Source of the DNA: a virus
Taxonomy: Duplodnaviria; Heunggongvirae; Uroviricota; Caudoviricetes
Virus record (IMG/VR): IMGVR_UViG_2531839585_000005
Coordinates: 1 to 7,397 of that record
DNA length: 7,397 nt
Reading direction: 5' to 3' (one strand)
Positions 1 through 7,397 of this stretch are shown piece by piece (position 1 is the first letter of the stretch; the number at the start of each line of letters is the position of its first letter). The notes under the pieces were generated by a model. The model had not been told where the DNA came from. It saw nothing but the letters and a program-made list of their open reading frames with translations, and ran no database searches. Both the position numbers and the translations under genes were made by a program.

Positions 1-151
1 CTGGATGACATCCGGGCGGGACGCATTGAGCGCGCCATTTCACGCTGTCGCAATATCTGGGCGTCCCTGCCGGGTGCCGGTTACGGTCAGCGTGAGCATT
101 CACTGGAAAAACTGGTCACCGTCTGGCGTACCGCGGGGCGTACCGGCTTAA
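1..151 (+). CDS. K: Phage endolysin, C-terminal part (lambda R / P2 K-type lysozyme); 5' end lies outside the window, 3' end uncertain
   Basis: Frame +1 from position 1 reads ...DDIRAGRIERAISRCRNIWASLPGAGYGQREHSLEKLVTVWRTAG..., matching the conserved C-terminal motif of lambda R-type endolysins (NIWASLPGAGYGQ.EH). Frame +1 has no stop until 229-231 and runs into the lysA ATG at 166. TAA codons sit in frame +2 at 149-151 and 158-160, so a 1-bp indel near 133-140 has probably displaced the true stop. Not in the ORF track because the start is outside the window. Confidence 0.65.
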   Translation, partial: WMTSGRDALSAPFHAVAISGRPCRVPVTVSVSIHWKNWSPSGVPRGVPA

Positions 152-165
152 ACGGAGTAAACACC

Positions 166-589
166 ATGAAGAAATTATCCCTTTCACTGATGCTGAACGT
201 GTCGCTGGCGCTGTGCTGGCACTGTCCCTGATTTACCCGCAGAGCGTGGCCGTCAGTTTTGTCGCCACCTGGGCGATTCTGGGACGGTTATCTGTGTGGT
301 TGCCGGTGGTGTCGGCGTGTATGCCACGGAGTATGTACTTGAACGCTACGGGCGGGAGCTGCCACCGGAATCGCTGGCCGTGAAGATTGTCACGTCGCTG
401 TTTTTGCAGCCGGTGCCGTGGCGCAGGCGGTCAGTGGCTCTGGTAGTGATGGTGGCGACGTTTATCTCGCTGGTCGCTGCCGGGTGGATTTTTACCGCGC
501 TGATTTATCTCGTGGCATCGGTGTTCTTCCGGCTGATACGTACGGCCTGCTGTCAGCGTTTTGAGGGGCGGGAACCATGTCAAAGCTGA
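166..589 (+). pseudogene. lysA: lysA-like lysis-timing membrane protein, frame-disrupted as sequenced (needs all three + frames)
   Basis: ATG at 166 sits 7-8 nt downstream of GGAG and opens MKKLSLSLMLNVSLAL in frame +1, which stops at 229-231. The continuation ...VLALSLIYPQSVAVSFVATWAILG is in frame +3 (about 213-283). The remainder, VICVVAGGVGVYATEYVLERYGRELPPESLAVKIVTSLFLQPVPWRRRSVALVVMVATFISLVAAGWIFTALIYLVASVFF..., is frame +2 and corresponds to track ORF 296-589. Hydrophobic segments fit a small membrane protein. The stop overlaps the lysB start. Position after the endolysin matches the P2 order K-lysA-lysB-lysC. Confidence 0.6.
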
Positions 590-3058: not shown

Positions 3059-3949
3059 ATGCCGATTATCGACCTGAACCAGCTACCTGCACCGGATGTG
3101 GTCGAGGAGCTGGACTTTGAAACCATTCTTGCTGAACGCAAGGCGACACTGATTTCTCTTTACCCGGAAGACCAGCAGGAGGCGGTCGCCCGTACCCTGA
3201 CGCTGGAATCTGAGCCTCTCGCCAAACTGCTGGAGGAAAATGCTTATCGTGAGCTTATCTGGCGTCAGCGTGTGAATGAGGCCGCACGGGCGGTGATGCT
3301 GGCCTGTGCCGCCGGTAATGACCTTGATGTGATTGGTGCCAATTACAACACCACGCGCCTGACTATCACCCCGGCAGATGATTCGACCATTCCGCCGACA
3401 CCGGCAGTGATGGAATCTGACACCGATTATCGTCTGCGTATTCAGCAGGCGTTTGAGGCTTAAGCGTCGCCGGGTCGGTGGGGCTATCAGTATCATGGTC
3501 GCAGTGCCGACGGGCGTGTCGCGGATATTCTGTACCAGTCCGTCTCCGGCCTGCGTCACCATCTCGTGCTGTCACGTGAAAATAACGGTGTGCATCCGAA
3601 GACTGCTGGCGGGTGCGTAACGCCCTTAATGGCGAGGACGTCAGGCCGGTGGCCGACCGCGTGACCGTGCAGTCTGCCGCCATGTTGAATACCAGATAAA
3701 CGCCACGCTTTACCTTTACCCTGGTCCCGAAAGGAACCCATCCGCGCGCCGCCGTGAAAAAACTGGAAGCTAATCACGGCACAGCACCGGCTGGGGCGGA
3801 CATCCGTCTGTCTGCCATTTATGCCGCTTTGCATGTGGAAGGGTGCAGCGTGTCGAACTGGCTGCACCCTGGCCGACATCGTGCTCAACAGTACGCAGGC
3901 GTCTTTCTGTACCGAATACCGCGTCGTGACCGGAGGCTCGGATGAGTGA
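3059..3949 (+). pseudogene. J: Baseplate protein J, intact for the first ~134 codons, then heavily frame-disrupted
   Basis: Frame +2 ORF 3059-3463 gives MPIIDLNQLPAPDVVEELDFETILAERKATLISLYPEDQQEAVARTLTLESEPLAKLLEENAYRELIWRQRVNEAARAVMLACAAGNDLDVIGANYNTTRLTITPADDSTIPPTPAVMESDTDYRLRIQQAFE and then hits TAA. Downstream, recognisable gpJ segments appear piecemeal across all three + frames: YQYHGRSADGRVADI, TSPSPACVTIS, VLSRENNGV, VRNALNGEDVRPVADRVTVQSAA, VEYQINATLYLYPGPE, VKKLEA, ITAQHRLGR, DIRLSAIYAALHVEG, LADIVLNSTQASFCTEYRVVTGGSDE. The final segment is in frame with a TGA at 3947-3949 that overlaps the I start. Full-length gpJ is about 300 aa as I recall. Confidence 0.8.
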
Positions 3950-4472
3950 TTCGCGACTGCTGCCGACCGGCTCATCACCGCTTGAAGTCGCCGCCGCAAA
4001 AGCCTGTGCGGAAATTGAAAAAACGCCGGTCAGTATTCGTGAGCTGTGGAACCCGGATACCTGTCCGGCAAATCTGCTGCCGTGGCTGGCGTGGGCGTTT
4101 TCGGTCGACAGGTGGGATGAAAAGTGGCCGGAAGCGACAAAACGCGCCGTTATCCGCGATGCCTATTTCATCCACTGTCATAAAGGCACAATAGGTGCAA
4201 TCCGGCGTGTGGTGGAGCCGCTCGGCTATCTCATCAACGTGACGGAGTGGTGGGAAAACAGTGACCCGCCCGGCACCTTCCGGCTTGATATTGGTGTACT
4301 GGAAAGCGGCATCACAGAGGCAATGTATCAGGAAATGGAACGGCTGATTGCTGATGCCAAACCTGCAAGCCGTCACCTTATTGGCCTGAACATTACCCGG
4401 GACATTCCCGGCTACCTGTTCGCCGGTGGTGTGGCTTACGACGGCGATGTAATTACGGTTTATCCCGGATAA
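3942..4472 (+). CDS. I: Baseplate protein I
   Basis: Intact 176-codon ORF MSDSRLLPTGSSPLEVAAAKACAEIEKTPVSIRELWNPDTCPANLLPWLAWAFSVDRWDEKWPEATKRAVIRDAYFIHCHKGTIGAIRRVVEPLGYLINVTEWWENSDPPGTFRLDIGVLESG..., recognised as P2 gpI-family with the expected length. Start overlaps the J 3' end. Confidence 0.9.
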   Translation: MSDSRLLPTGSSPLEVAAAKACAEIEKTPVSIRELWNPDTCPANLLPWLAWAFSVDRWDEKWPEATKRAVIRDAYFIHCHKGTIGAIRRVVEPLGYLINVTEWWENSDPPGTFRLDIGVLESGITEAMYQEMERLIADAKPASRHLIGLNITRDIPGYLFAGGVAYDGDVITVYPG

Positions 4473-4482
4473 GTGAGGAATA

Positions 4483-6648
4483 ATGAGCACAAAATTCAGA
4501 ACCGTTATCACCACTGCCGGTGCAGCAAAGCTGGCAGCGGCAACCGCGCCGGGAGGGCGGAAGGTCAACATTACCACGATGGCCGTCGGGGATGGCGGTG
4601 GTAAATTGCCTGTCCCGGATGCCGGACAGACCGGGCTTATCCACGAAGTCTGGCGACATGCGCTGAACAAAATCAGCCAGGACAAACGAAACAGTAATTA
4701 TATTATCGCAGAGCTGGTTATTCCGCCGGAGGTGGGCGGTTTCTGGATGCGTGAACTTGGCCTGTACGATGATGCGGGAACTAATTGCCGTGGCGAACAT
4801 GGCCGAAAGTTATAAGCCAGCCTTGCCGAAGGCTCAGGGCGTTCGCAGACCTGCGCATGGTCATCATCGTCAGCAGTGTGGCCTCAGTGGGCTGACCATT
4901 GACACCACAACGGTGATGGCACGCAGGATTACGTTGATGACAAAATTGCAGACATGAACAGTCACGACGTCACCCGACGCCTCGCTGACCGCAAAAGGTT
5001 TTACTCAGTTAAGCATGCGACCAACAGCACGTCTGAAACACTGGCCGCAACGCCGAAAGCGGTAAAGGCCGCGTATGACTTGCTAACGGGAAATAACGCC
5101 AGGAGCCACCAAGCGCGAAAAGGCCTTGTCCAGCTCAGTAGGCCACCAACAGCGATTCTGAAACGCTTGCGGCAACGCCAAAGGCGGTTAAGACAGCGTA
5201 TGACCTTGCTAACGGGAAATACACTGCACAGGAGCCACCACGCGCGAAAGGTCTTGTCAGCTCAGTAGCGCCACCAACAGGATTCTGAAACGCTGGCTGC
5301 AACATCAAAAGCGGTGAAGTCTGCCTATGACAATGCTGAAAAACGTCTTCAGAAAGATCAGAACGGTGCGGATATTCCGGGAAAGGATACCTTCACGAAA
5401 AATATCGGTGCCTGTCGTGCTTATAGCGGCGCTTTGAGCACTGAAGCCGGAAACTGGACAACCGCTCAGTTTATTGAATGGCTGGATTCCCGTGGTGCAT
5501 TTAATCATCCGTACTGGATGTGCAAAGGCTCCTGGTCATATGCAAATAACAAAATCATTACGGATACCGGATGTGGTGATATCCACCTGGCTGGTTGTGT
5601 CGTCGAGGTCATGGGAACTAAATCTGCAATCACTATTCGAGTGACCACGCCGACAACATCAAGTGGTGGCGGTACAACCAGCGCGCAATTCACTTACATA
5701 AATCATGGGGACGGCTACTCCCCCGGCTGGCGTCGTGACTGGAATCGTCAGGGCGACGCAATGACCGGAACGATTAATCAGGATGGCGGAAGCCAGAATG
5801 CCTATATGTCTACGGCCTTATGTTCAGGCACCAGAGGCGGCAAAAAATATCTCAGAAAGTTTCGTGGTGGAGAAGGAGACACTATCTGGCATGAAACAGT
5901 ACAGGGCGGGGTAATTCGCTGGGCGACAGGAAACTATGACGCTCAGGAAGAATTATCACTCAGCTCCGCTTATGGTCTCCGTTCAAGAGGTGAGATTACA
6001 TCACTCAGTGCTAATGGTCTGCGCATTGCTTATGGCAATTATGGATTCTTTATCAGGAATGATGGCGGCAGCACATATTTAATGCTGACGGCCTCTGGCG
6101 ATAAATTAGGCACATAGAACAATTTAAGACCGCTGACTATAAATAACGCCAAGGGCGCAGTATCAATGGGGCATGGCCTGAATGTTACTGGTGATATTGT
6201 CTCAAGTACCAAAGTACGTGCCGGTAGCGGGAAAAAATTCACGGTCAGCAGCAGTAATACATCCACGAAGGAAGCCGCATTCAATTTGTGGGGAAACTCA
6301 AGTCGTCCGGTGGTGGCTGAATTAGGTGATGATGCAGGCTGGCATTTTTACAGTCAGAGAAATACAGATAACAGCATCACGTTTGCTGTTAACGGTCAGG
6401 TATCACCATCTAACTATAGTAATTTTGATTCACGCTATGTCCGGGATATCCGGCTTGGTGGTGCTGCCACATACAAACCTGCGAACAATGGCATGACATG
6501 GACACATCAGGCACCGTCCGGGTGTGTATATTCCGGCATTATTGTTCAGGATACCGGCTCAAACTCTGCCGATAACATTGGTGGCATATATTACAGACCG
6601 GTGCAGAAATACATTAACGGGACTTGGTATAACGTGGCGCAGGTATAA
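4483..6648 (+). pseudogene. H: Tail fibre protein H (mosaic). 5' third is frame-disrupted, one in-frame TAG at 6115-6117, otherwise continuous
   Basis: ATG at 4483 preceded by GAGG. Frame +1 reads MSTKFRTVITTAGAAKLAAATAPGGRKVNITTMAVGDGGGKLPVPDAGQTGLIHEVWRHALNKISQDKRNSNYIIAELVIPPEVGGFWMRELGLYDDAGT, the gpH N-terminus. From about 4778 the continuation (LIAVANMAESYKPAL, LAEGSGR, RMVIIVSSVASV, LTIDTTTVMA, then the ATNSTSETLAATPKAVK repeats) is scattered over three frames up to about 5280. From 5281 to 6648 a single frame +1 runs cleanly apart from the TAG at 6115-6117 (track ORFs 5314-6117 and 6166-6648). The C-terminus ...NFDSRYVRDIRLG...RPVQKYINGTWYNVAQV is the conserved P2-H-type tail-fibre terminus. 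Confidence 0.85.
5006..5337 (+). repeat. Three imperfect direct tandem repeats of ~126 bp inside H, encoding a repeated tail-fibre motif
   Basis: Copy 1 about 5006-5130, copy 2 about 5131-5258, copy 3 (partial, diverging) about 5259-5337. Each encodes a variant of QLSSATNS(T/D)SETLAAT(P/S)KAVK(A/T/S)AYDLANGKYTAQEATTARKGLV. The copies differ by substitutions and 1-bp indels. Confidence 0.7.
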
Positions 6649-6651
6649 TTT

Positions 6652-7179
6652 ATGCAGCATTTGATAAATATAACGGCAGGTAATCCAAAAACGGTTGAAC
6701 AATATCAATTGACAAAGGACTTTGATGTTGTCTGGTTTTTTTCAGAAGATGGTAAGAACTGGTACGAAGAACAAAAGTATTTTGCTGATGACACGATAAA
6801 AATAGCGTACGACAAAGATAATATCATCCGCTATGTGGAAAAGGATGTGACAGCTATCAGACCGGATGGATTAAGTGTGGTTGAAGTGGCGGATATTACT
6901 GCTAACCGACGGGCGGATATTTCAGGGGGCTGGATGTTTAAGGACGGCAAAGTGATTAAACGCATTTATACGGCAGATGAATTGCGGCGGCAGGCAGAAA
7001 TTCGGAAAGTCAGACTTCTTGCAGATGCTGAATCCGTGATTTTGCCGCTGGAGCGCGCTGTCAGGCTGAACATGGCAACAGATGAGGAGCGTAGCCGACT
7101 GGAAGCATGGGAGCGTTACAGCGTTCTGGTCAGTCGTGTGGATCCTGCAAATCCTGAATGGCCGGAAATGCCGCAATAA
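6652..7179 (+). CDS. G: Tail fibre assembly protein G (Tfa-type chaperone)
   Basis: Intact 175-codon ORF starting 3 nt after the H stop: [44 protein letters not shown]...[42 protein letters not shown]. The C-terminal half is recognised as the P2 gpG/Tfa family. Position immediately 3' of the tail-fibre gene fits. Confidence 0.9.
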
Positions 7180-7213
7180 GTTGTATGAGTTCTGGTGTGA
7201 GCTTACACATCTA

Positions 7214-7255
7214 TGGCACAGAGTAAAGCCTAATCTGACAGTTCGCTCTGTGCCA
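7214..7255. repeat. Perfect 10-bp inverted repeat (TGGCACAGAG / CTCTGTGCCA) separated by 22 nt, in the A+T-rich region after G
   Basis: Positions 7214-7223 and 7246-7255 are exact reverse complements. No T-run follows, so it is not a canonical intrinsic terminator. It could be a protein-binding site, an RNA stem-loop at the operon 3' end, or the junction of inserted DNA. Confidence 0.5.
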
Positions 7256-7397
7256 AGAGCGGACGTTACTACTACTCGACCTAAAGTAAAGCAATTGTAC
7301 TCATTAAATAGTGGTAATTGGGTCTGGTGCTTAATCGAACGAAATCTCATGTTAGGCGAAAAAAACGTCTGAAAAATCGATTAACACATACACCTGT

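What the first reader, a model, noticed from the sequence alone, without database searches (positions are those of the whole stretch)
5314..6117. Distal tail-fibre region differs from P2 H: mosaic receptor-binding module
The N-terminus (4483 to about 4780) and the extreme C-terminus (from about 6230: SSSNTSTK...WHFYSQRNTDNS...NFDSRYV...QKYINGTWYNVAQV) look P2-H-like. The intervening about 270 codons (KSAYDNAEKRLQKDQNGADIPGKDTFTKNIGACRAYSG ... GLRIAYGNYGFFIRNDGGSTYLMLTASGDKLGT) do not match what I recall of P2 H and resemble distal fibre segments seen in other enterobacterial phages. This suggests horizontal exchange of the host-range determinant, a known behaviour of tail-fibre genes, so the receptor specificity of this element probably differs from P2.
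Basis: partly seen in the sequence, partly recalled or inferred. Interest (0 to 1): 0.5.

Follow-up and report, generated by a model that had tools for sequence, protein, structure and literature searches.

The report
Ordinary mosaic P2-type tail fibre
The tail-fibre gene of this P2-like prophage does carry a distal block unrelated to phage P2's, but the same block is common in E. coli prophages and Yersinia phages, is built from known phage Mu and T4-type fibre domains, and the gene's breaks look like assembly errors, so this is an ordinary mosaic fibre.

Summary
In gene H (4483-6648), the block 5317-6231 (305 codons) has no detectable similarity to P2 H. The flanks are P2-like: 96% nt upstream, and 79% and 94% aa in two C-terminal stretches.

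It is bounded by frameshifts upstream and an in-frame TAG (6115-6117).

The block contains two known modules:
- C1 (5317-5754) is 68% identical to the phage Mu G(-) fibre gp52 (PDB 8JU3) and 84% to a lambdoid side tail fibre.
- C2 (5755-6231) is a T4 gp34-type trimerisation domain, as in Mu S (5YVQ).

The same block is 96-100% identical in Yersinia phage vB_YpM_46. It is present in 193 of 5426 complete E. coli genomes.

It co-varies with the N-terminal half of the chaperone G.

So receptor specificity probably does differ from P2, but the best-supported determinant lies outside the flagged interval.

The window is a whole draft contig. Its roughly 50 single-base deletions and the TAG look like a collapsed consensus of two related prophages.

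Already known kind; low interest.

The parts
4483..4975 (+). H segment A: the N-terminal baseplate-attachment (tail-collar fibre) domain. It is in frame up to about 4781 and then broken by single-base deletions.
   Evidence: Pfam PF12571 covers aa 1-151, E 2.6e-58. 97% aa identity to P2 H 1-167. Deletions at 4782, 4822, 4854, 4891, 4921 and 4953 relative to L004 and YpM46.
4976..5316 (+). H segment B: three Phage_fiber_2 shaft repeats (SETLAATPKAVK...), heavily frameshifted in this record. P2 has two repeats, YpM46 and the ETEC prophage four, and 14EC001 five.
   Evidence: Pfam PF03406, three stretches, E 4.4e-57. Repeat counts. The window has a 135-nt repeat unit fewer than L004, plus about 12 one-base deletions. 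Peptide coordinates.
5317..5754 (+). H segment C1: first part of the non-P2 block. A Cys-containing domain of about 146 aa of the Mu S' (gp52, G(-) fibre) type, preceded by the conserved joint motif LQKDQNGADIPGKDTFTKNIG.
   Evidence: No similarity to P2 H. 100% to YpM46, 14EC001 and the ETEC prophage, 87% to fiAA91-ss, 84% to lambdoid mEp460 Stf. 68% (108/160) to Mu gp52 aa 12-171. PDB 8ju3 residues 177-332, E 1.4e-69. phrog_21834, E 3.8e-85.
5755..6231 (+). H segment C2: second part of the non-P2 block. It contains a T4 gp34 C-terminal trimerisation-type domain, as in Mu S, and is interrupted by the TAG at 6115-6117.
   Evidence: Pfam PF21446 Gp34_trimer covers aa 497-560, 93 bits against a cut-off of 27. 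PDB 5yvq (Mu S) 264-343, E 2.5e-28, and 4uxe (T4 gp34), E 6e-17. 96% to YpM46, and no similarity to P2, fiAA91-ss or mEp460. T-even gp36/gp37 hits at 44-60%.
6115..6117 (+). In-frame amber codon TAG where homologues have TGG (Trp) or TAT (Tyr). Most likely a chimeric consensus call.
   Evidence: The A at 6116 is the ETEC120899 allele (TAT) and the G at 6117 is the 14EC001/YpM46 allele (TGG). No base in 5900-6460 is unique to the window, and in 6108-6162 the two allele types alternate every 1-5 nt. The 146-nt patch is at most 93.8% identical to any of 5426 complete E. coli genomes.
6232..6459 (+). H segment D: the conserved proximal part of the C-terminal tip domain (KKFTVSSSNTSTK...WHFYSQRNTDNS...NFDSRYVRDIRLG). 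P2-like.
   Evidence: 79% aa and 73% nt identity to P2 H 540-615. Also matches T4 gp34 (4uxe 99-142).
6460..6594 (+). H segment E: hypervariable tip patch of 45 aa (GAATYKPANNGMTWTHQAPSGCVYSGIIVQDTGSNSADNIGGIYY). It is positionally equivalent to HR2 of phage P88 and is the best-supported receptor-specificity determinant. Not P2-like.
   Evidence: No similarity to P2 or YpM46. 100% to the ETEC prophage, 96% to fiAA91-ss, 87% to 14EC001. Aligns with P88 aa 711-746. An HR2 swap changed P88 host range (PMC5285337). Lies within the stretch aligned to the C-terminal receptor-binding region of Mu S (5yvq 413-503, E 6e-15).
6595..6648 (+). H segment F: the conserved C-terminal 17 aa (RPVQKYINGTWYNVAQV) plus the stop codon.
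   Evidence: 94% to P2 and YpM46, 100% to fiAA91-ss and ETEC. The same motif ends Mu S (RPVQKNINGTWYNVASA).
6652..7179 (+). G: tail fibre assembly chaperone (Tfa), intact, 175 aa. Its N-terminal half (6652-6936) co-varies with tip patch E.
   Evidence: Pfam PF02413 Caudo_TAP, E 6.4e-33. phrog_136. The N-half is 98% to fiAA91-ss and ETEC G but 67-68% to P2 and YpM46 G. The C-half is 81-94% to all four. 71% to Mu U.

Best explanation
The flagged interval is the middle of gene H, the long tail fibre of a P2-like (Peduovirus) prophage. The fibre is a homotrimer built from exchangeable modules.

Module order:
- A P2-type N-terminal domain that docks on the baseplate.
- Three shaft repeats.
- A non-P2 block made of a Mu-S'-type domain (C1) and a T4-gp34/Mu-S-type trimerisation domain (C2).
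- A tip domain whose framework (D, F) is P2-like but whose 45-aa hypervariable patch (E) is not.

The downstream chaperone G folds the tip, and its N-terminal half matches the E type.

Shown here: the module boundaries, their nearest relatives, and their wide distribution.

Inferred:
1. The modules were exchanged by homologous recombination at conserved joints. These are the last fibre repeat with the NGADIPGKDTFTKNIG motif upstream, segment D, and segment F plus G downstream.
2. Receptor contact, most likely with the LPS core as for P2 and Mu, is made chiefly by the tip (D-E-F). E sets specificity, while C1-C2 act mainly as shaft or spacer domains.
3. Specificity therefore differs from P2 and from vB_YpM_46, which shares C1-C2 but has the P2-type tip. 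It should resemble fiAA91-ss and the ETEC prophage alleles.

The frameshifts and the TAG that break H in this record are most likely artefacts of a draft assembly that collapsed two related P2-like prophages into one consensus.
For: Operon context and Pfam domains.

Segment-by-segment identities against six references. DNA breakpoints.

Solved-structure relatives:
- 8ju3 (Mu gp52), E 1e-69, for C1.
- 5yvq (Mu gp49) and 4uxe (T4 gp34) for C2.
- 5yvq 413-503 for the tip.

Direct comparison with Mu S and Sv'.

Distribution:
- At least 80% of the block is present in 193 of 5426 complete E. coli genomes.
- C2 through the start of G is present in 146 genomes.
- The full window matches seven ETEC chromosomes at 97%.
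- Five Yersinia pestis-isolated peduoviruses carry the block.

E equals P88 HR2 by alignment, and an HR2 swap transfers host range while an HR1 swap does not (PMC5285337).

The Tfa N-half co-varies with E.

Artefact reading:
- The window is the complete 7397-bp contig APZI01000619.1 of a draft assembly.
- About 50 indel events against L004 are all deletions. They sit in six clusters that contain no substitutions.
- Deleted sites are polymorphic among P2-like references in 13 of 28 cases, against 30 of 741 neighbouring columns (Fisher p 1.6e-10).
- Every variable base in 5900-6460 equals one of two known alleles, with base-by-base alternation around the TAG.
Against: - No receptor or adsorption data exist for this allele or for vB_YpM_46.
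- The P88 experiment tested one phage pair, whose region upstream of the tip differs from this one. C1-C2 were never swapped.
- In Mu, the whole Sv/Sv' segment switches host range, including the C1-type domain. A contribution of C1 is therefore not excluded.
- 14EC001 has an E patch 87% identical to the window's, but a G N-half only 69% identical. E/Tfa co-variation is thus not strict.
- The assembly-artefact reading is inferred from the pattern. Reads and coverage were not available.
- Fine-scale allele alternation can also arise from patchy mismatch repair after real recombination.
Confidence: 0.82

Rival explanations
1. The flagged C1-C2 block is itself the primary receptor-binding, host-range module. 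The tip patch would only fine-tune specificity.
For: - It is the largest non-P2 stretch.
- C1 belongs to the variable, inversion-switched part of the Mu G(-) fibre and is shared with lambdoid side tail fibres.
- PMC11821841 states that the two Mu fibres recognise different LPS core regions.
Against: - vB_YpM_46 shares C1-C2 at 96-100% yet carries a P2-type tip and a P2-type Tfa N-half. C1-C2 therefore assort independently of the tip.
- In P88, the tip patch alone transferred host range and the upstream variable region did not.
- C2 is a trimerisation-type domain of T4 gp34, the proximal half-fibre, which does not bind the receptor (Pfam description).
Confidence: 0.15
2. H is truly inactivated in this genome. 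On this reading the prophage is defective, and the frameshifts and amber codon are real pseudogenising mutations.
For: - The public contig itself carries them; the window is identical to APZI01000619.1.
- V and J are also broken.
- Defective P2-like remnants are common in E. coli (general knowledge).
Against: - About 50 deletions and no insertions.
- The deletions are confined to stretches with zero substitutions against L004.
- They are 11-fold enriched at sites that vary among P2-like phages.
- The TAG is a base-wise chimera of two natural sense codons.
- This pattern fits consensus-calling on mixed reads, not neutral decay.
Confidence: 0.1
3. The P2-like/non-P2 junction is an assembly chimera that joins pieces of two different prophages. 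No real fibre would then have this architecture.
For: The contig shows signs of collapsed repeats.
Against: The same junctions occur in closed chromosomes (ETEC 120899, 14EC001) and in complete phage genomes (vB_YpM_46, P37). In all of these H is one intact annotated ORF of 764-819 aa.
Confidence: 0.03

Closest known systems
E. coli ETEC strain 120899 prophage tail fibre WP_000104742.1 (NZ_CP025916) and six sister ETEC genomes
   Same: Same module order throughout (A, B, C1, C2, D, E, F) and the same Tfa type. 97% nt identity over the whole window. C1 and E are 100%, C2 93%, D 99% and F 100% identical.
   Different: It has four shaft repeats instead of three and an intact ORF of 772 aa. It has the TAT (Tyr) codon where the window has TAG, and a locally different allele in 5914-6160.
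Yersinia phage vB_YpM_46 tail fibre YP_010107789.1 (also P37, vB_YpM_115, vB_YpM_117 and VB-YPM-4)
   Same: An isolated, viable peduovirus with the same non-P2 block (C1 100%, C2 96%, D 100%) and a P2-like N-terminus.
   Different: Its tip patch E and its Tfa N-half are of the P2 type (E 22%, G N-half 68%). It has four repeats.
Bacteriophage P2 gpH / gpG (NP_046775 / NP_046776)
   Same: Same gene position. N-terminal domain 97% identical. Same fibre repeats and tip framework (D 79%, F 94%). Same Tfa family.
   Different: P2 aa 244-539 are unrelated in sequence to window aa 286-590. Tip patch E is unrelated. Two repeats. G N-half is 67% identical.
Phage Mu tail fibres S (gp49, PDB 5YVQ) and S' (gp52, PDB 8JU3)
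   Same: C1 is 68% identical to gp52 aa 12-171. The C2 core is about 70% identical to S 264-343. The tip is homologous to S 413-503. The chaperone is 71% identical to U.
   Different: Mu puts these domains in two alternative fibres switched by Gin inversion. Here one S'-type and one S-type domain sit in tandem in a single fixed gene. There is no gix site and no invertase in the window. The N-terminal attachment domain is P2-type, not Mu-type.
Enterobacteria phage fiAA91-ss gpH / gpG (YP_008766936/7)
   Same: A P2-like phage with three repeats. C1 is 87%, E 96%, F 100% and the G N-half 98% identical. DNA is 93% identical across 6388-7269.
   Different: It lacks the window's C2 and has a different D (9% and 37%).
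Phage P88 tail fibre hypervariable region HR2 (PMC5285337)
   Same: The same position in the tip: between RLG and RP(I/V)QKYING, 17-18 aa from the C-terminus.
   Different: The P88 and P2 HR2 sequence is unrelated to window segment E. P88 is a Xuanwuvirus with an invertase and a second fibre set.

Membership tests
P2 gpH-type long tail fibre (Peduoviridae) | N-terminal tail-collar fibre domain (PF12571) highly similar to P2 H | tested here: met
   PF12571 covers aa 1-151, E 2.6e-58. 97% identity to P2 H 1-167.
P2 gpH-type long tail fibre (Peduoviridae) | Position in the late operon between gene I and the Tfa gene G | tested here: met
   I lies at 3942-4472, H at 4483-6648 and G at 6652-7179. 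Synteny matches P2, YpM46 and the ETEC prophage.
P2 gpH-type long tail fibre (Peduoviridae) | Phage_fiber_2 shaft repeats | tested here: met
   PF03406, three stretches. Three SETLAATxKAVK motifs.
P2 gpH-type long tail fibre (Peduoviridae) | One uninterrupted reading frame | tested here: inconclusive
   In this record the frame is broken by about 20 one-base deletions (4782-5281) and the TAG at 6115-6117. The pattern points to an assembly artefact, but reads were not available.
   aa 286-590 and 667-711 have no similarity to P2 H.
Mu S/S' invertible tail-fibre system | Sequence homology of distal domains to Sv' and Sv | tested here: met
   68% to gp52 aa 12-171. 40% over 291 aa to S 227-502, with a core of about 70%.
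Mu S/S' invertible tail-fibre system | gix crossover site in the fibre gene, an inverted alternative Sv'/U' set and a Gin-type invertase | tested here: not met
   No match to the Mu gix-coding sequence with up to 3 mismatches. No second fibre or Tfa ORF and no invertase in the window. The contig ends 218 nt after G.
T4 gp34 C-terminal trimerisation domain (PF21446) | Score above the Pfam gathering threshold | tested here: met
   93 bits against a cut-off of 27, aa 497-560, profile positions 54-116. PDB 4uxe 159-233, E 6e-17.
Tail fibre assembly protein (Caudo_TAP, PF02413) partnered with the fibre tip | Tfa gene immediately downstream, with its variable N-half matching the tip type | tested here: met
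   PF02413, E 6.4e-33. The N-half is 98% to the G of phages sharing E and 67-68% to the G of phages with a P2-type tip. 14EC001 is a partial exception.
Host-range-determining tip patch (HR2 of P88) | Exchange of the patch changes host range | not testable with these tools
   Only positional equivalence is shown. The functional evidence comes from P88/pro147 (PMC5285337).

The most novel reading that the evidence does not exclude
The fibre could be bispecific. On this reading the Mu-S'-type domain C1, placed mid-shaft, is a second lateral receptor-binding site, for example for an inner-core LPS epitope as reported for the Mu G(-) fibre. It would act together with the hypervariable tip. Shuffling C1 and the tip independently, as seen between vB_YpM_46, fiAA91-ss and this allele, would then generate combinatorial host ranges without an inversion switch.
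Probability: 0.1. Interest if true: 0.35.

Novelty: already known. Interest (0 to 1): 0.12.

Why it matters
It matters little as a discovery. Tail-fibre mosaicism among P2, Mu, P1, lambda and T-even phages is textbook knowledge. This allele is already annotated as 'tail fiber protein' in hundreds of RefSeq genomes and in isolated phages.

It has three practical uses:
- It gives a clean module map (A to F, plus the Tfa N-half) with natural junctions. These could guide chimeric P2/P4 or tailocin fibre engineering.
- It shows that the likely specificity patch (6460-6594) is not the large divergent block.
- It warns that this draft contig's frameshifts and stop codon should not be read as pseudogenisation.

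Tried and rejected
- **Exact-pattern scans.** I scanned for the patch around the TAG in genome contigs (twice, once with the middle base of TAG free) and in viral contigs. There were no matches. The local sequence is absent from those collections, which fits a chimeric consensus.
- **Source organism.** A literature search for the WGS prefix APZI found nothing, so the source organism of GCA_000356865.2 was not identified.
- **Structure prediction.** Single-sequence AlphaFold2 of 5317-6114 gave mean pLDDT 32.6 and pTM 0.22, which is unusable. No fold search was run. I ran no further search on building an alignment, because solved structures already match C1 and C2 by sequence (E 1e-69 and 1e-28).
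- **NCBIfam.** No hits for the three ORF fragments.
- **GC content.** I considered GC as evidence of recent import. GC drops from 0.55-0.58 to 0.44-0.50 across distal H, but P2's own distal H shows the same drop (0.48, 0.46). It is not diagnostic.
- **Invertible segment.** I rejected a hidden invertible segment: there is no gix-like site.
- **Casjens & Grose 2016 (PMC4969182).** Not held in the library.
- **My recollection of the P2 H C-terminus.** It was wrong and was corrected against NC_001895.
Full report
**What the window is.** The 7397-base window is a P2-type late operon. It carries lysis genes, R and S, the baseplate genes V, W, J and I, the tail fibre gene H (4483-6648) and the tail fibre assembly gene G (6652-7179). 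It is identical to, and the same length as, the public draft contig APZI01000619.1 of assembly GCA_000356865.2. Its best matches are P2-like prophages in seven closed ETEC chromosomes, at 97% identity over 100% of the window. Among isolated phages the best matches are the Yersinia pestis-propagated peduoviruses vB_YpM_46, P37, vB_YpM_115, vB_YpM_117 and VB-YPM-4.

**Checking the observation.** H is not one open frame in this record. Frame 1 runs from 4483 to about 4781. The reading then hops between frames until about 5284. An ORF runs 5314-6117 and ends in TAG (6115-6117), and a last ORF runs 6166-6648. I repaired the one-base gaps against the closest closed genome, which gives a 728-aa protein.

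Results against authentic P2 H (NC_001895), with aa values and blastn values:

| Repaired aa | Window | Segment | Versus P2 H |
|---|---|---|---|
| 1-167 | 4483-4975 | A | 97% aa |
| 168-285 | 4976-5316 | B | fibre repeats, three versus two |
| 286-590 | 5317-6231 | C1 + C2 | no significant aa alignment; no blastn hit in 5320-6231 |
| 591-666 | 6232-6459 | D | 79% aa; 73% nt (6232-6440) |
| 667-711 | 6460-6594 | E | no aa similarity; no blastn hit in 6441-6593 |
| 712-728 | 6595-6648 | F | 94% aa; 77% nt (6594-7268, includes G) |

Across A and B, blastn gives 96% nt identity up to about 5194/5319.

Three corrections apply:
- The non-P2 block ends at 6231, not 6117.
- The stretch 4782-5316 is also P2-like, but frameshifted.
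- The 'P2-like' C-terminus contains a 45-aa non-P2 patch.

**What the block is.** It consists of two modules.

C1 (5317-5754) opens with the joint motif LQKDQNGADIPGKDTFTKNIG and contains five cysteines.
- It is 68% identical (108/160) to the start of Mu gp52, the variable part of the G(-) fibre S'.
- It matches PDB 8JU3 with E 1.4e-69.
- It is 84% identical to the side tail fibre of lambdoid phage mEp460 and 87% to the P2-like phage fiAA91-ss.

C2 (5755-6231) carries a Pfam Gp34_trimer domain, at 93 bits against a cut-off of 27.
- It matches Mu S (5YVQ 264-343, E 2.5e-28) and T4 gp34 (4UXE).
- It matches T-even distal and proximal fibre genes at 35-60% identity.

P2 H has its own, different Mu-S-like stretch and a weaker hit to the other half of the same Pfam profile. 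The two fibres may therefore be architecturally analogous in this region, although they are unrelated in sequence there.

The window has no Mu-type gix site and no invertase. The S'-type and S-type domains sit in tandem in one fixed gene.

**Distribution.**
- At least 80% of 5314-6117 is present in 193 of 5426 complete E. coli genomes, mostly at 95-99% identity and always chromosomal.
- The stretch from C2 through the start of G (5900-6700) is present in 146 genomes.
- tblastn finds parts of the block in 853 phage records. Only 21 cover 80% or more of it.
- vB_YpM_46 has C1 at 100% and C2 at 96% identity.

The block is a common, already annotated allele.

**Where specificity most likely resides.** The C-terminal 138 aa (D-E-F) align with the C-terminal region of Mu gp49 crystallised with its chaperone (5YVQ 413-503, E 6e-15).

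Within it, segment E (6460-6594) is hypervariable. It is unrelated to P2 and vB_YpM_46, and it is 100% identical to the ETEC prophage allele and 96% to fiAA91-ss.

Aligned with phage P88, E coincides with HR2 (aa 716-746). In P88, swapping HR2 for the pro147 version conferred the pro147 host range. Swapping the larger upstream variable region HR1 did not (PMC5285337).

The N-terminal half of chaperone G tracks E. It is 98% identical to the G of fiAA91-ss and the ETEC prophage, but 67-68% to the G of P2 and vB_YpM_46. The C-terminal half is 81-94% identical to all four. DNA identity to fiAA91-ss is 93% across 6388-7269, so tip plus chaperone look like one exchanged cassette. From memory, and not checked here, North et al. 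2019 reported that the variable N-domain of Tfa proteins binds the fibre tip.

The window's H is thus best described as a vB_YpM_46-like gene up to about 6458, joined to a fiAA91-ss-like tip and chaperone from about 6388.

Receptor identity is unknown. LPS core is the expectation by analogy with P2 (from my own knowledge) and Mu (PMC11915804, PMC11821841). OmpA has been reported as one receptor of the P2-like phage HQ103 (PMC11177050 abstract).

**Mechanism of exchange (inferred).** Breakpoints fall at sequences conserved across many fibres:
- the last Phage_fiber_2 repeat and the NGADIP joint, which in Mu lies next to the Sc/Sv boundary;
- segment D;
- the terminal RPxQKxINGTWYNV motif plus the 3' half of G.

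This is the classical pattern of homologous recombination at conserved linkers. GC content falls along distal H and G, but it does so in P2 as well, so it adds no information.

**The broken reading frame.** Against the ETEC prophage the window has 123 substitutions, one missing 135-nt repeat, and about 50 small indels. All of the indels are deletions in the window. They are grouped in six clusters (135-283, 1169-1195, 2229-2273, 2527-2569, 3456-3869, 4782-5281), and those clusters contain no substitutions at all.

Deleted sites are polymorphic among ETEC, vB_YpM_46 and P2 in 13 of 28 cases. For neighbouring columns the figure is 30 of 741 (Fisher p 1.6e-10).

In 5900-6460 no base is unique to the window. 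Each variable base equals either the ETEC allele or the 14EC001/YpM46 allele, and in 6108-6162 the two types alternate every 1-5 nt. The TAG takes its A from TAT (ETEC type) and its G from TGG (the other type). The resulting 146-nt patch is at most 93.8% identical to anything in 5426 E. coli genomes, while its flanks are 97-99% identical.

The simplest reading is a collapsed consensus of two related P2-like prophages in a fragmented draft assembly. Conflicting positions would have been dropped or voted base by base. Real decay of a defective prophage is much less likely, and only reads can exclude it. The mosaic architecture itself is not an artefact, because closed genomes and phage genomes carry it as one intact ORF.

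**Verdict.** Interest is low.

Noticed in passing
window 135-283, 1169-1195, 2229-2273, 2527-2569, 3456-3869, 4782-5281: About 50 one- to three-base deletions relative to the closest closed genome, with no insertions. They sit in clusters that contain no substitutions and are enriched 11-fold at sites polymorphic among P2-like phages. They break V, J, H and other genes. This looks like a collapsed two-prophage consensus in draft contig APZI01000619.1, not pseudogenisation.
   Followed up: yes
window 6108-6162 (TAG at 6115-6117): Alleles of two known H variants alternate base by base. The amber codon is a chimera of TAT and TGG. The patch is at most 93.8% identical to any complete E. coli genome.
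   Followed up: yes
window 6460-6936: The tip patch E and the N-terminal half of chaperone G co-vary as a cassette shared with fiAA91-ss and ETEC prophages. E aligns with the experimentally defined HR2 of phage P88.
   Followed up: yes
window 4976-5316: The number of 44-aa fibre repeats varies among close relatives: P2 two, window and fiAA91-ss three, vB_YpM_46 and ETEC four, 14EC001 five. This implies fibre-length variation by unequal recombination. The window's count could itself be affected by assembly collapse.
   Followed up: partly
window 7180-7397: Similarity to P2 ends at about 7268. The contig ends 218 nt after G in a low-GC (0.41) stretch, at the position where P2 carries the variable fun(Z) locus and relatives carry other cargo genes. 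A contig break here fits divergence between co-resident prophages.
   Followed up: no
L008 (phage P88) 24860-27564: P88, a P2-like Xuanwuvirus, carries a second, inverted fibre-tip and Tfa set and a DNA invertase downstream of H/G. This is a Mu/P1-style switch that the window lacks.
   Followed up: no
L003 (P2 H aa ~370-480) versus L009 (Mu S aa ~171-264): P2 H's own middle region is nearly identical to part of Mu S (LGLQETVNRA...KWDAL). The P2 reference fibre is thus itself a Mu mosaic, using a different Mu-derived stretch from the window's (sequences).
   Followed up: partly
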